From: a virus
Taxonomy: Duplodnaviria; Heunggongvirae; Uroviricota; Caudoviricetes
Length of the DNA: 12,113 nt
Direction: 5' to 3' (one strand)
Virus record (IMG/VR): IMGVR_UViG_2703718787_000020
Shown here: one piece after another, positions 6,001 through 9,000 of the stretch
How the letters are laid out: each line of letters begins with the position of its first letter
How positions within the stretch are numbered: position 1 is the stretch's first letter
Made by a program: the position numbers

Positions 6001-9000
6001 CAAGAAAACCACGGCGCAGCGGGGCGTGAGTGGATTAAATGGCTTGCGGAGAACCAGCAGGAAGCTAAGGACGCGGTTAGAGAGAGCCGTGCACGCTGGC
6101 GAAATATCATTCCAGACAATTACGGTGAGCAGGTCCACCGCGTGGGTGAACGTTTCTCCATACTGGAGGCCGCGCTTGTGCTTTCCGGTCATGTAACTGG
6201 CTGGTCCGTGCAGGAATGCCGCGATGCAATTCAGTATGTATTTAATGCCTGGGTAAAAGAATTTGGCACGGGCAACAAGGAACACAAACAGATCATTGAG
6301 CAGGCAGAGGCGTTTCTTGCTGCCTACGGCATGAGCCGTTTTGCGCCCGTTGATTATGACCCAGCCAGCCTGCCGATTTCTGAGCTGTACGGCTACAGGG
6401 ATTCGGGAAGCCGTTACGATGAACCATTGTTGTTTTACGTATTATCGGAGCCGTTTAAATCGAAAGTAGCGGAAGGCTTCAACAAGGATACCGTTGCAAA
6501 AATACTCCACGAAGCTGGAATGCTGAAACGACCAGAGAGCGGGAGAGGATGGAAAATCAAGACCCCACGCCTTAAGAACCTTAATGGAGCGCAATTATGG
6601 GCCTACGGGATGTTGTTCGCTAATCACGATGAGGAGGGAAGCGATTAACTACGCGTATATAAGATGAAAAAATGTTGCCTCAGTTGCCTCAAATAGTAAT
6701 AAATATATGTATATGATTGATTTATATATTTTATTTCTGTTTTTGCTGAGGCGACAATTGCTCATTTTGAGGCGACAATTGCTCATTTTGAGGCAACAAT
6801 TGCTCATTTTGAGGCAACAATTACCCATTTTGAGGCAACACGGCTGACAGGTTTTGTTTGTCTGAACGGAACGCGTTCAACGTGATGTTGCCTCAAATAC
6901 CCCCTATTGTTGCCTCAAATCGACATGATGTTGCCTCAATTTTTTTGTGATTATCAATTAAATCAATGCGTTAAGACGTTTGAGGCAACTGGGGCGACTG
7001 AGGCAACACGTTTTTCCTATATATATAAAGCGTGTGAATGATGTGATGCCTGGAAGGAGACGATTCATGATCAAAAAAACAAGTGAAACGGAATCTGTTG
7101 TGAGGTTCGTATCGGTACGAGGCAGAGCCACGCTTTATATACCTGACGAACATCTGCATCACTGCGATGAAAAACATATCCCGATCCTGATTGTCTGGAA
7201 GCGAACGGTATACGCCGATGTGACATGGCTGAATGATTCGCTGATGTTGATACACCGTGACCTGTTTGAACGTGAAGAGTTCCGGCGGGATATTGAAGAG
7301 CGGGCAGAAAAAATCTATGAGAAATATTCAGCAAACAGTAAAAGATCCGCACGGGCAATCGCTCACCATTTCATGACGCTGTATGACCTGAAAGCGGAAG
7401 ATGCAGAAAAAGCGGCATGTGATTTATTCGATATGACAATGGGGATTATCCAGGAGTACCGGAACAAGGAGCGCAGACCATGACAGCACAGATTGCAGCT
7501 TACGGGCGGCTGGTGGACGACCAGCAGGTAAAACAGACCAGCAAAGGAACACCAATGGCACTGGCGCGTATGGCGGTATCTTTGCCATGCAGTCAGGCAC
7601 AGGACGGACAGGCGACGTTATGGCTATCAGTCCTGGCATTTGGTAAGCAGGCCGACGCGCTGGCGAGACATGAAAAAGGCGACCTTATCAGCGTGGCGGG
7701 TAACATGCAGATCAGCCAGTGGACCGGACAGAACGGAGAAATACGGCAGGGCTGGCAGGTTATCGCTGACAGCGTAATCAGTGCCCGTTCGGCGCGTCCT
7801 GGCGGGAAGCGGGGGCAACAGGGGAAGGCGACCGAAGCACTGGAAAGAGCAAAACGACAGACCGGACAGCAGGGAAATCAGCCACCAGCGGGAGGTGATG
7901 ACCCGTTCTCTGACGATATTCCTTTCTGAATGACAGGAGCACAACATGAACCAGCAGACCACACAACAGGACCAGACCACACGCAGACCCACGGAGCGCC
8001 CATCATGGCGACACATGACGAAGCGGCAGCGAAAAAACCGCAGGAGGATAAACCGACTGGCTGAGTACTGGCCTGAACTGTTTGGGGCAGAGACTATAAA
8101 GCCCCTGAAAACGGGCATAATACGTGATGTGCTTGAGGACGCTAAATCACGGGAATTACCGATTGGTCATGGCGTATTACGTGGCGCATTAACCTCATAC
8201 ATCCACACGTCGCGATACCTGAAAGCCATTGTCGCTGGTGGCCCTCGGTATGGACTGAACGGGCAGCCTTGCGGTGAAGTCACGGAAGAAGATAAATCAG
8301 TCGCCAGTGAACTACTGAAGCGGAGACTGGAGCAGATGAAGCAGAAAAACAGTCAGCAGTAATCAGCCGGAGGTAAAGCCAGTGATAACGGACAGCGTGG
8401 CACAGAAACTTGAGGAGCGCGGTTTATGGCGACGTGCGGCGACCCGATGGTCTGAGGTTCTTCTTCACGCAGAAACAGACAGGGAACGCGAGGAAGCTGC
8501 CAGACGTCGGGCGATATGTATCATTAAATCCCGTCGTATGCCTGAGCAGTTTGTCACCTTTGGCGATGTGAAAAAGGCCGCAGACAGAACGCTGAAAGAG
8601 ATGGGGATTAATCCACAGGATGAATGGCGAAATTACAGCTTCAGTGATGCAGGCGACGATTTAGCGCTATCGTGATACGCATCTCATCGCCGTATTTGCT
8701 CAATTATCGCGATTCGCTATAATCACCACCGAAAGGCCGTTGATGGTGTTCGCCTCGGGCAACTGGAGCCCGACTGAATGAAGCCAGCCAGCGGCTTTTC
8801 GGCACTCATTCCGGTGTATCTCCCATACATCGGGATGAGTGAACGACGAAAACATCACGGTGATTTCGTCATGCCGCGATAAGAATGCGCCTCTTTGGGC
8901 AATTGAAGCCCTCTGTACAGCGGGTTATCGCGGCAAAGTTGTGATAAAAACGCGCCTCTTTGAGCAACTGGAGCTCACTGTAAAGCGGCTTATCACAGCA

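What the first reader, a model, noticed from the sequence alone, without database searches (positions are those of the whole stretch)
7067..8362. Translationally coupled hypothetical-SSB-ProQ/FinO module resembling plasmid leading-region functions
An SSB with an intact DDIPF interaction tip, which in E. coli recruits more than a dozen genome-maintenance proteins, is encoded on the element together with a FinO-domain RNA chaperone; the hypothetical and ssb genes overlap as ATGA. Element-borne SSBs may protect replicating ssDNA or compete with host SSB for partner proteins; FinO-family proteins on mobile elements usually stabilise a cognate antisense RNA. Finding both together on a satellite-like island is notable.
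Basis: partly seen in the sequence, partly recalled or inferred. Interest (0 to 1): 0.45.

Follow-up and report, generated by a model that had tools for sequence, protein, structure and literature searches.

The report
SSB and FinO genes on satellite
Three real genes (an orphan protein, a single-strand DNA-binding protein and a FinO-type RNA chaperone) sit just after the replication origin of a 14-kb phage-satellite island in a Shiga-toxin E. coli. The gene calls are right, the plasmid "leading-region" analogy is not, and the layout is a common satellite cassette that is already annotated.

Summary
ORFs 7067-7483, 7480-7929 and 7946-8362 are intact, each has a Shine-Dalgarno site, and the first two overlap as ATGA. 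Pfam supports SSB (7e-14) and ProQ/FinO (3e-25). The 138-aa protein is an orphan.

The element is a ~14.1-kb AlpA-type PICI satellite at tRNA-Gly in E. coli STEC2018-607, not a conjugative element. Its SSB belongs to a satellite lineage found in 31% of complete E. coli genomes and in many Enterobacterales. That lineage sits after the replicase/iteron origin and usually before a PerC-like gene, and it is unrelated to plasmid leading-region ssb. FinO and FopA are not leading-region genes either.

hyp138 and the FinO gene are optional occupants of this slot, mostly confined to Escherichia. Some islands carry FinO-PerC without SSB, so "SSB-FinO" is not an obligate unit.

Most likely the SSB supports induced satellite replication through its conserved acidic tip, and the FinO protein chaperones an island RNA that ends in a terminator hairpin. 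The best candidate is the isrK-like/C4 immunity RNA pair. The second is a newly noticed 400-nt hairpin-array RNA downstream of perC. One unit of that array is antisense to a Stx-phage giant gene.

Overall ordinary, with one speculative lead.

The parts
4510..6648 (+). DUF927 replicase/helicase of the island (context: the module follows it)
   Evidence: Pfam DUF927 2e-42; PHROG 1139 'DNA primase' 3e-141; a weak NCBIfam match to the SCCmec Cch1 helicase
6656..7016 (.). Iteron replication origin: about 13 copies of TGAGGCRAC in both orientations, 21-bp phasing, with an AT-rich spacer
   Evidence: the repeat finder; matches the published description of E. coli PICI origins (PMC6092414)
7067..7483 (+). 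hyp138: orphan 138-aa protein, first gene after the origin, stop codon overlapping the ssb start (ATGA)
   Evidence: No Pfam, PHROG, NCBIfam or PADLOC hit. Only 18 clusters in 5.8e9 proteins. AF2 gives an alpha/beta sandwich (pLDDT 78) with no informative fold match.
7480..7929 (+). Satellite-lineage SSB: OB fold at residues 5-99, Gly/Gln/Pro-rich linker, acidic tip DDPFSDDIPF
   Evidence: Pfam SSB 7e-14, TIGR00621 64 bits, PHROG 44 2e-39. W48, F54 and W81 align with E. coli SSB W54, F60 and W88.
7946..8362 (+). Minimal FinO-domain protein: conserved basic N-terminal stretch WRHMTKRQRKNRRRINRL (21-38) plus a FinO domain (31-136)
   Evidence: Pfam ProQ 2.6e-25. PDB FinO, ProQ and RocC 4e-12 to 3e-11. 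K55, R79, R90-Y91-L92 and R101 align with ProQ K35, R58, R69-Y70-L71 and R80.
8382..8675 (+). PerC/PchE-like gene, fourth and last gene of the compact block
   Evidence: Pfam PerC 3.5e-29. Follows SSB and/or ProQ in most related islands.
3362..3550 (+). isrK-like RNA (3362-3438, terminator hairpin plus U6) and C4 antisense RNA (3463-3550): best-supported candidate ligands of the FinO-domain protein
   Evidence: Rfam isrK 49.1 bits (gathering score 50) and C4 77.7 bits. IsrK is listed among ProQ-associated sRNAs in Salmonella (PMC5391140).
8696..9127 (+). Candidate ncRNA or structured 3'UTR: possible promoter TTGCTC-16-TATAAT (8696-8723), seven hairpins, intrinsic terminator (stem 9064-9118, U-run 9119-9127). 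Second candidate ligand.
   Evidence: MFE z = -8.1 on the + strand and -5.1 on the - strand. In six islands, 98% of cells are paired and 9 pairs show compensatory changes.

Best explanation
The three genes, together with the next gene (perC/pchE-like), form a compact post-origin operon. It belongs to a ~14.1-kb AlpA-type phage-inducible chromosomal island (PICI satellite) integrated at tRNA-Gly beside ETT2 in E. coli STEC2018-607.

Shown:
- The gene identities.
- The SSB belongs to a satellite-specific lineage whose constant position is directly after the replicase gene and iteron origin.
- hyp138 and the FinO-domain gene are optional occupants of that slot, mostly confined to Escherichia.

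Inferred:
- After helper-phage induction the island's own replicase fires the iteron origin.
- The island SSB coats the exposed ssDNA while host SSB is in demand from the phage.
- Through its conserved acidic, hydrophobic-ended C-terminal tip, the SSB recruits host partners (Pol III chi, DnaG, PriA and others) and perhaps the island replicase.
- hyp138 is co-translated with the SSB and is probably an SSB or replication accessory factor. This is a weak inference.
- The FinO-domain protein is a separate function. It is a minimal RNA chaperone that binds an RNA ending in a terminator hairpin. That RNA is most likely the island's own isrK-like/C4 antisense immunity RNA pair, which gates expression of the replication operon. 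This would parallel FinO-FinP/traJ and FopA-Inc/repZ.
For: Gene identities:
- Established.

The element is a PICI:
- It carries int, alpA, isrK/C4-icd, DUF4222, a DUF927 replicase and iterons, and has no structural or lysis genes.
- attL and attR are 21-nt tRNA-Gly repeats 14.1 kb apart.

SSB lineage and position:
- The gene is present at 80% coverage or more in 1663 of 5426 complete E. coli genomes.
- It was found in 15 species of Enterobacterales, and int and/or alpA are detected upstream in most of those loci.
- It also follows DUF5906, Toprim-DUF927 and VapE replicases.
- An acidic C-terminus ending in F or L is retained in 20 of 23 distinct homologues of this lineage. Examples are DDIPF, DEIPF, DDETPF, DDDF and DEAGF. 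The three exceptions are shortened or partial ORFs.

Operon compactness:
- The gaps are a 4-nt overlap, 16 nt and 19 nt, and no terminator is predicted inside the block.

FinO domain:
- RNA-contact residues are conserved, and the basic N-terminal motif is invariant across 19 variants.
- FinO domains recognise intrinsic terminators (PMC9674577).
- IsrK is reported as ProQ-associated (PMC5391140).
- The window carries an isrK-like RNA with a terminator and U6 tail, and a C4 RNA, upstream of the replicase.
- FopA stabilises the replication-control antisense RNA Inc (PMC7491321, PMC9977716).
Against: - There are no expression, replication or binding data.
- SSB is absent from some related PICIs that carry ProQ-PerC (55989 and APEC E123). 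It is therefore not indispensable for PICI replication.
- The residue aligned with E. coli SSB H55 (tetramer interface) is Leu, and the W40 equivalent is missing.
- isrK/C4 RNAs are equally present in satellites without a FinO gene, so there is no co-occurrence signal for that ligand.
- The FinO gene is usually coupled to perC by a 4-nt overlap (L009, L014, L034, L035). This hints at a regulatory or virulence role rather than a replication role.
- hyp138 has no informative homologue or fold match.
Confidence: 0.6

Rival explanations
1. Leading-region-like function: the SSB protects incoming single-stranded element DNA and damps SOS on entry into a new cell, as plasmid ssb-psiB does, with FinO as part of the same establishment package.
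For: The acidic tip resembles that of plasmid and host SSBs: DDIPF in the window and FSDDIPF in pCol1B9 SSB. Plasmid SSBs are an established leading-region function (PMC7690428 and PMC9849209, listed; otherwise my own knowledge).
Against: - The window has no oriT, relaxase, psiB or ardA.
- The SSB is a different lineage: PRK13732 scores 20 bits against a cut-off of 265, identity to plasmid SSB is 23%, and only 39 of 72,556 plasmid records match.
- PICIs are transferred as dsDNA in phage capsids (PMC6092414).
- fopA and finO are not in leading regions.
Confidence: 0.04
2. Conflict function: the satellite SSB mainly competes with host or helper-phage SSB for partner proteins. Alternatively it acts as a decoy or trigger for SSB-sensing defence systems, so as to interfere with the helper or protect the host, rather than supporting satellite replication.
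For: - The tip is host-like and conserved.
- The slot after the origin is variable cargo space in PICIs, where interference genes are usually placed (PMC6092414).
- SSB is dispensable in some PICIs.
Against: - SSB follows four different replicase types directly, and across genera. This fits a replication partner better than a mobile interference gene.
- There is no PADLOC match.
Confidence: 0.15
3. The FinO-domain protein is a host-directed accessory regulator, paired with PerC. It competes with or extends chromosomal ProQ to retune host or virulence transcripts (LEE and others), independently of the satellite life cycle.
For: - ProQ-PerC overlap or adjacency is seen in every ProQ-positive island examined, including those without SSB.
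- PICI PerC homologues modulate LEE (PMC11773190, PMC6092414).
- FopA also binds chromosomal RNAs (PMC7491321).
Against: - The gene sits inside the induction-dependent operon directly after the origin.
- Characterised mobile-element FinO proteins have a cognate element-encoded RNA as their main ligand (PMC9977716).
Confidence: 0.2
4. The cognate RNA of the FinO-domain protein is the ~400-nt hairpin-array RNA immediately downstream of perC (8730-9127). Its hairpin unit is antisense to the LPD38/LPD5 giant gene of Stx phages. The chaperone would promote antisense pairing against the helper, as FinO does for FinP-traJ.
For: - The array is strongly structured (z = -8.1), shows covariation and G-U asymmetry, and ends in a long-stem terminator with a U-tail.
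- The full array is found in 113 genomes and this proQ variant in 116.
- The unit at 8873-8934 is 89-92% identical to the antisense strand of the Stx-phage gene. In islands L031 and L033 the identity is 60 of 61 nt.
Against: - The diverged ProQ-positive islands L009, L014, L034 and L035 have no such array, so the co-occurrence may be simple co-inheritance of one 2-kb block.
- No transcript data exist.
- The hairpins could equally act as ssDNA sites or protein-binding sites.
Confidence: 0.08

Closest known systems
ssDNA-binding-protein / PerC (PchE) genes of E. coli PICIs such as OI-51/Sp7 (EcCIEDL933, a capsid-forming PICI), ED1a and CFT073
   Same: The backbone is the same: int, alpA, icd region, replicase, origin, small ORF, ssb, perC. 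The SSB is the same lineage (about 80% nt identity in O157 strains, 77% aa in a cf-PICI). A conserved putative ssDNA-binding protein gene in all three islands, and PchE in OI-51, were noted in PMC3378721.
   Different: Those islands have no FinO-domain gene between ssb and perC, and carry a different small ORF in place of hyp138. The window's island has no capsid or terminase module.
FinO (F-like plasmids) and FopA/YafB (IncI1 pCol1B9)
   Same: All are stand-alone FinO-domain proteins on mobile elements with a basic N-terminal extension. The key Tyr and Arg are conserved. Identity over the domain is 33-35%. FopA's main ligand is the replication-control antisense RNA Inc (PMC7491321).
   Different: The window protein is shorter (138 aa, against 186 for FinO and 200 for FopA). 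It forms a separate clade confined mainly to Escherichia satellites. It is chromosomal and satellite-borne. Its ligand is unknown. It is not linked to tra or rep genes of a plasmid.
Plasmid leading-region ssb-psiB-psiA-ardA cluster
   Same: An element-encoded SSB with an acidic ...DDIPF tip.
   Different: The SSB lineage differs (23% identity; the PRK13732 cut-off is not met). No oriT, psiB or ardA is present. The element is packaged as dsDNA. FinO-type genes lie elsewhere on those plasmids.
SCCmec replication set (Cch DUF927 helicase plus element SSB LP1413)
   Same: A DUF927-type self-loading helicase is accompanied by an element-encoded SSB on a small integrative element. There is a weak NCBIfam match of the replicase to SCCmec Cch1. 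The paper PMC10061031 appeared. The details of Cch and LP1413 are from my own knowledge.
   Different: The host is Gram-positive. The SSB is an unrelated, atypical type. There is no FinO or PerC and no phage-satellite life cycle.
IsrK-AnrP-AntQ circuit of Salmonella Gifsy-1, and P1 c4 / P4 CI immunity RNAs
   Same: The island carries an isrK-like RNA, a C4 RNA, an icd-like gene and an antiterminator Q gene. IsrK is reported as ProQ-associated (PMC5391140).
   Different: Here a FinO-domain protein is encoded by the element itself. No direct link to these RNAs has been shown, and satellites without the protein carry the same RNAs.

Membership tests
Bacterial homotetrameric SSB family (PF00436 / TIGR00621) | OB-fold domain scoring above the curated cut-offs | tested here: met
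   PF00436 52.1 bits (cut-off 26); TIGR00621 64.3 bits (cut-off 53.95)
Bacterial homotetrameric SSB family (PF00436 / TIGR00621) | Aromatic ssDNA-stacking residues (E. coli W40, W54, F60, W88) | tested here: inconclusive
   W48, F54 and W81 align with W54, F60 and W88. No aromatic residue is at the W40 position (alignments).
Bacterial homotetrameric SSB family (PF00436 / TIGR00621) | Disordered linker plus acidic C-terminal tip ending in Pro-Phe | tested here: met
   Residues 104-139 are rich in Gly, Gln, Pro, Arg and Lys. The tip is DDPFSDDIPF. Acidic tips ending in F or L are retained in 20 of 23 distinct homologues of this lineage.
Bacterial homotetrameric SSB family (PF00436 / TIGR00621) | ssDNA binding and tetramer formation | not testable with these tools
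   The residue equivalent to the H55 interface residue is Leu49. Biochemistry is needed.
ProQ/FinO RNA-chaperone family (PF04352) | FinO domain above the curated cut-off and similar to solved members | tested here: met
   89 bits (cut-off 27); FinO 1dvo 4e-12, ProQ 5nb9 6e-12, RocC 7rgt 3e-11
ProQ/FinO RNA-chaperone family (PF04352) | Conserved RNA-contact residues (ProQ K35, R58, Y70, R80; FopA Y146, R157) | tested here: met
   K55, R79, Y91 and R101 align with these residues and are invariant in 19 satellite variants. The importance of the residues is taken from PMC7491321.
ProQ/FinO RNA-chaperone family (PF04352) | FinO fold at the structure level | tested here: inconclusive
   The AF2 model has pLDDT of only 56.6. 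The order of secondary-structure elements is compatible, but the model is too poor for a fold search.
ProQ/FinO RNA-chaperone family (PF04352) | A cognate structured RNA or terminator ligand | not testable with these tools
   Candidates only: the isrK-like/C4 RNAs and the hairpin array at 8730-9127.
Plasmid leading region | Adjacent to oriT and a relaxase; first DNA to enter the recipient as ssDNA | tested here: not met
   The window and its 32-kb neighbourhood contain no relaxase or oriT genes. The element carries integrase, AlpA and a replicase.
Plasmid leading region | Plasmid-type SSB (NCBIfam PRK13732) with psiB, psiA and ardA neighbours | tested here: not met
   PRK13732 scores 20.2 bits against a cut-off of 265. 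Identity to pCol1B9 SSB is 23%. The neighbours are hyp138, FinO and PerC.
Gram-negative PICI (AlpA-type phage satellite) | int, alpA, replicase (pri/rep) and iteron origin in one orientation; size 10-15 kb; own att site; no structural or lysis genes | tested here: met
   The tRNA-Gly att repeats are 14.1 kb apart. The criteria are from PMC6092414.
Gram-negative PICI (AlpA-type phage satellite) | Induction, replication and packaging by a helper phage | not testable with these tools
   There is only an indirect hint: a 62-nt element shared with Stx phages.

The most novel reading that the evidence does not exclude
The island encodes a dedicated RNA-chaperone/antisense pair aimed at its helper. 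The FinO-domain protein would load a ~400-nt multi-hairpin RNA (8730-9127) whose units are antisense to a hairpin inside the LPD38/LPD5 giant gene of Stx-converting phages. Satellite variants track phage variants (60 of 61 nt). The pair would silence or sense that phage transcript, a FinO-FinP/traJ-type mechanism redeployed for satellite-helper conflict.
Probability: 0.08. Interest if true: 0.7.

Novelty: new member of a known kind. Interest (0 to 1): 0.3.

Why it matters
About a third of complete E. coli genomes carry this satellite SSB. Even so, the PICI papers I could search do not discuss what a satellite-borne SSB or FinO-type chaperone does.

The analysis sharpens three questions. Showing that the post-origin slot holds SSB and/or a FinO-domain protein, usually followed by PerC, reframes these genes as part of the satellite's core or early programme rather than as random cargo. 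It yields clean deletion and CLIP experiments. It also points to candidate RNAs (isrK/C4 and a hairpin array with antisense homology to a Stx-phage gene) that could link RNA chaperones to satellite immunity or helper exploitation in Shiga-toxin E. coli.

As it stands the finding is mainly a correct annotation with an incorrect analogy.

Tried and rejected
1. hyp138 function.
- Pfam, PHROG, NCBIfam and PADLOC gave nothing.
- A profile search of 1.8e9 representatives found only short unannotated relatives.
- Foldseek against BFVD gave nothing at E below 0.001. The afdb50 library was unavailable.

2. Structure of the FinO protein.
- AF2 with a 19-sequence alignment gave pLDDT 56.6, so it was not used for a fold search.

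3. Does an element-borne FinO gene correlate with C4/isrK RNAs?
- No. Both RNAs occur in satellites with and without the gene.

4. Does the FinO gene correlate with the hairpin array?
- Only within one closely related island lineage. Diverged ProQ-positive islands lack the array.

5. Is the 13-nt perfect inverted repeat around the hyp138 start (7022-7034 / 7129-7141) a conserved translational control element?
- No. It is present only in the window and L003 lineage.

6. Is fopA next to ssb in the IncI1 leading region?
- No. It lies 17 kb away, beside repA. The accession HE654725.1 is not held.

7. The consensus promoter scan found no strong sigma-70 promoter for the operon.

8. Rfam has no family for 8730-9127.
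Full report
**1. Observation**

The window is 100% identical to E. coli STEC2018-607 chromosome NZ_CP075697.1.

| Gene | Coordinates | Length | Shine-Dalgarno site |
|---|---|---|---|
| hyp138 | 7067-7483 | 138 aa | AAGGAG 7054-7059 |
| ssb | 7480-7929 | 149 aa | AAGGAG 7466-7471 |
| FinO-domain gene | 7946-8362 | 138 aa | AGGAG 7935-7939 |

The ssb ATG overlaps the hyp138 TGA as ATGA. A fourth gene, perC-like (8382-8675, GTG start, SD GGAGG), follows after 19 nt. No terminator is predicted inside the block. 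The unit is therefore a four-gene operon, of which only the first pair overlaps.

**2. Identities**

SSB:
- Pfam PF00436 7e-14, TIGR00621 64 bits (cut-off 54), PHROG 44 2e-39.
- The alignments place W48, F54 and W81 on E. coli SSB W54, F60 and W88. The W40 and H55 equivalents are not conserved.
- The C-terminus is DDPFSDDIPF.

FinO-domain protein:
- Pfam PF04352 2.6e-25. PDB matches are FinO 4e-12, ProQ N-terminal domain 6e-12 and RocC 3e-11.
- K55, R79, R90-Y91-L92 and R101 align with ProQ K35, R58, R69-Y70-L71 and R80, and with FopA Y146 and R157. These residues are described as essential for RNA binding in PMC7491321.
- A basic stretch, WRHMTKRQRKNRRRINRL, precedes the domain and is nearly invariant in 19 variants.
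- An AF2 model was too poor (pLDDT 56.6) to add anything.

hyp138:
- It is a true orphan. There is no hit in four HMM libraries.
- Only 18 clusters exist among 5.8e9 proteins, from Escherichia, Salmonella and Pantoea.
- Distant relatives are short and unannotated.
- A moderately confident alpha/beta-sandwich model has no informative structural neighbour.

**3. What the element is**

- Upstream lie a tyrosine integrase abutting tRNA-Gly and an AlpA gene.
- Next comes an isrK-like RNA plus a C4 antisense RNA (Rfam 49 and 78 bits) in front of an icd-like ORF.
- Then come a DUF4222 gene and a 712-aa DUF927 replicase.
- An iteron origin follows, with about 13 copies of TGAGGCRAC in 21-bp phasing.
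- The tRNA 3' end is repeated 14.1 kb downstream (20 of 21 nt), about 1.8 kb beyond the window.
- There are no capsid, tail or lysis genes.
- This meets the published definition of a Gram-negative PICI satellite (PMC6092414).

**4. The module in its family**

The SSB belongs to a lineage specific to such satellites.
- Its gene is present at 80% coverage or more in 1663 of 5426 complete E. coli genomes.
- It was found in 15 species of Enterobacterales. In most of those loci int and/or alpA are detected upstream, and in about half a PerC gene follows directly.
- It follows replicases of different types: DUF927, Toprim-DUF927, D5_N/DUF5906 and VapE.
- One "plasmid" hit is a capsid-forming PICI: int, alpA, icd, replicase, small ORF, ssb, perC, capsid through terminase.
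- A conserved putative ssDNA-binding-protein gene was already noted for OI-51/Sp7, ED1a and CFT073 in 2011, along with a PerC-like PchE in OI-51 (PMC3378721).
- The acidic tip ending in F or L is retained in 20 of 23 distinct homologues of this lineage, with sequence drift. The exceptions are shortened or partial ORFs.

hyp138 and the FinO gene are optional.
- hyp138 homologues precede ssb only in Escherichia, Klebsiella and Pantoea islands. The Salmonella homologue sits alone with no ssb nearby. Other islands have unrelated small ORFs or nothing in that position.
- This FinO variant is in 116 E. coli genomes and in E. albertii.
- It is absent from the Pantoea, Klebsiella, Enterobacter and cf-PICI versions.
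- PICIs of strains 55989 and APEC E123 have replicase, origin, ProQ/FinO (176 aa) and PerC with no SSB at all.
- In the diverged ProQ-positive islands (L009, L014, L034, L035) the FinO gene overlaps perC by 4 nt.
- The slot after the origin therefore holds SSB and/or a FinO-domain protein, followed by PerC in most islands. SSB-FinO is not an obligate pair.

**5. The leading-region analogy**

- The SSB fails the plasmid-SSB model (PRK13732, 20 bits against 265).
- It is 23% identical to the pCol1B9 leading-region SSB.
- It matches only 39 of 72,556 plasmid records.
- In pCol1B9, fopA lies beside repA, 17 kb from ssb-psiB-psiA-ardA.
- The window has no oriT, relaxase, psiB or ardA.
- The analogy is therefore not supported.

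**6. Mechanism**

The constant adjacency of SSB to replicase and origin, together with the conserved tip, best fits a replication-accessory role during induced satellite replication. This is an inference.
- It is established knowledge (my own) that the E. coli SSB tip recruits Pol III chi, PriA, DnaG and others.
- The closest precedent is an element-encoded SSB accompanying a DUF927 helicase in SCC elements (my own knowledge; weak Cch1 match).

For the FinO protein:
- The family recognises intrinsic terminators (PMC9674577).
- Mobile-element members serve a cognate antisense RNA (PMC9977716, PMC7491321).
- The island's isrK-like RNA has a terminator with a U6 tail, and IsrK is listed among ProQ-associated sRNAs (PMC5391140).
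- By analogy with P4 CI and P1 c4 (my own knowledge), the adjacent C4 RNA gates the downstream replication operon.
- This makes isrK/C4 the best candidate ligand.
- However, the same RNAs occur in satellites lacking the protein. Host ProQ may suffice there, and no co-occurrence support exists.

**7. A lead found on the way**

Immediately after perC lies a possible promoter (TTGCTC-16-TATAAT, 8696-8723). It is followed by seven consecutive hairpins ending in a long-stem terminator (8730-9127).
- Five GGGCAAYTGRAGC motifs sit at the hairpin apexes.
- MFE z is -8.1 on the + strand and -5.1 on the - strand.
- In six islands, 98% of cells are paired. Nine pairs show compensatory changes (1 of 500 shuffles reaches this number), and there are many G-U pairs.
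- Rfam has no match.
- One 62-nt unit (8873-8934) is 89-92% identical to a single site inside the ~2790-aa LPD38/LPD5 gene of Stx-converting phages. It matched 183 phage records, nearly all Stx phages.
- The orientation is such that the island's + strand is antisense to the phage gene.
- In two islands the match to the EDL933 prophage is 60 of 61 nt, with no flanking homology.
- The full array (113 genomes) and this proQ variant (116 genomes) travel together. Diverged ProQ-positive islands lack the array.
- It is therefore a candidate FinO ligand or anti-helper RNA at low probability.
- ssDNA priming sites, or protein-binding palindromes on the lagging-strand template, are equally open.

**8. 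Verdict**

- The context is a PICI post-origin operon, not something resembling a leading region.
- The genes are already annotated in RefSeq. The presence of SSB, PerC and ProQ in PICIs is already on record, though without functional study.
- Novelty: a new member of known kinds.
- Interest is modest (0.3), with a speculative higher-interest reading tied to the hairpin array.

Noticed in passing
window 8696-9127 (+): A possible promoter (TTGCTC-16-TATAAT) is followed by an array of seven hairpins ending in a strong intrinsic terminator. Five GGGCAAYTGRAGC motifs sit at the hairpin apexes. MFE z = -8.1. Covariation is seen in six islands. There is no Rfam family. This is a candidate ~400-nt ncRNA or structured 3'UTR.
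   Followed up: partly
window 8873-8934 (+); L029:6001-6062; L030:7001-7062: One 62-nt hairpin unit of the array is 89-92% identical to a single site inside the giant LPD38/LPD5 'polyvalent protein' gene of Stx-converting phages, and 60 of 61 nt in islands L031 and L033. It matched 183 phage records. The orientation is antisense to the phage gene, and homology is limited to the hairpin. This may be a satellite-helper link.
   Followed up: partly
window 2135-3775 (+), with RNAs at 3362-3438 and 3463-3550: RefSeq annotates a 546-aa 'Icd-like' ORF that runs across the isrK-like and C4 RNA genes. Pfam finds only a weak Rha N-terminus and a 'Phage_ASH' stretch that coincides with the RNA genes. This is probably an over-extended or fused ORF call rather than one real protein.
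   Followed up: partly
window 2581-2892 (-) and 2956-3135 (-): Two minus-strand ORFs (103 and 59 aa) share a C-terminal motif, FALE(D/A)F(V/L)(E/D)KYPRRL..KNR. They lie inside the doubtful long plus-strand ORF and have no Pfam match. They may be real paralogous small genes.
   Followed up: no
window 6656-7016: The iteron origin has about 13 copies of TGAGGCRAC in direct and inverted sets with 21-bp phasing around an AT-rich spacer. Related islands with other replicases carry different iterons, for example CGGGATAT in strain 55989.
   Followed up: partly
window 9122-9508 (-): A convergent 127-aa gene has no family match. It is conserved downstream of the cassette in satellites of many genera (Pantoea, Klebsiella, Enterobacter, Kluyvera, Shimwellia, Atlantibacter). 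It ends exactly at the array terminator.
   Followed up: partly
window 8382-8675, 9593-9895, 9897-10064, 11442-11840: The island carries three PerC-family paralogues and an antiterminator Q gene alongside the isrK-like RNA. This recalls the Salmonella IsrK-AnrP-AntQ toxicity circuit.
   Followed up: no
window 7022-7034 / 7129-7141: A perfect 13-nt inverted repeat brackets the hyp138 ribosome-binding site and start codon. It is present only in the window and L003 lineage, so it is not a general control element.
   Followed up: yes
window 10270-10460 and 11050-11325: The long non-coding stretch before antQ is dense with short direct repeats. Examples are GCGCAAAACGAAAC twice, CCTGAAAAA-type repeats, and a 36-nt repeat at 11070 and 11286. 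It also holds a small minus-strand terminator-like hairpin at 10324-10307. Function is unknown.
   Followed up: no
L001 8256-8277 and 22325-22344 (outside the window on both sides): The island boundaries are tRNA-Gly 3'-end repeats 14.1 kb apart. The island sits between actS/tRNA-Gly and a degraded ETT2 type III secretion cluster.
   Followed up: yes
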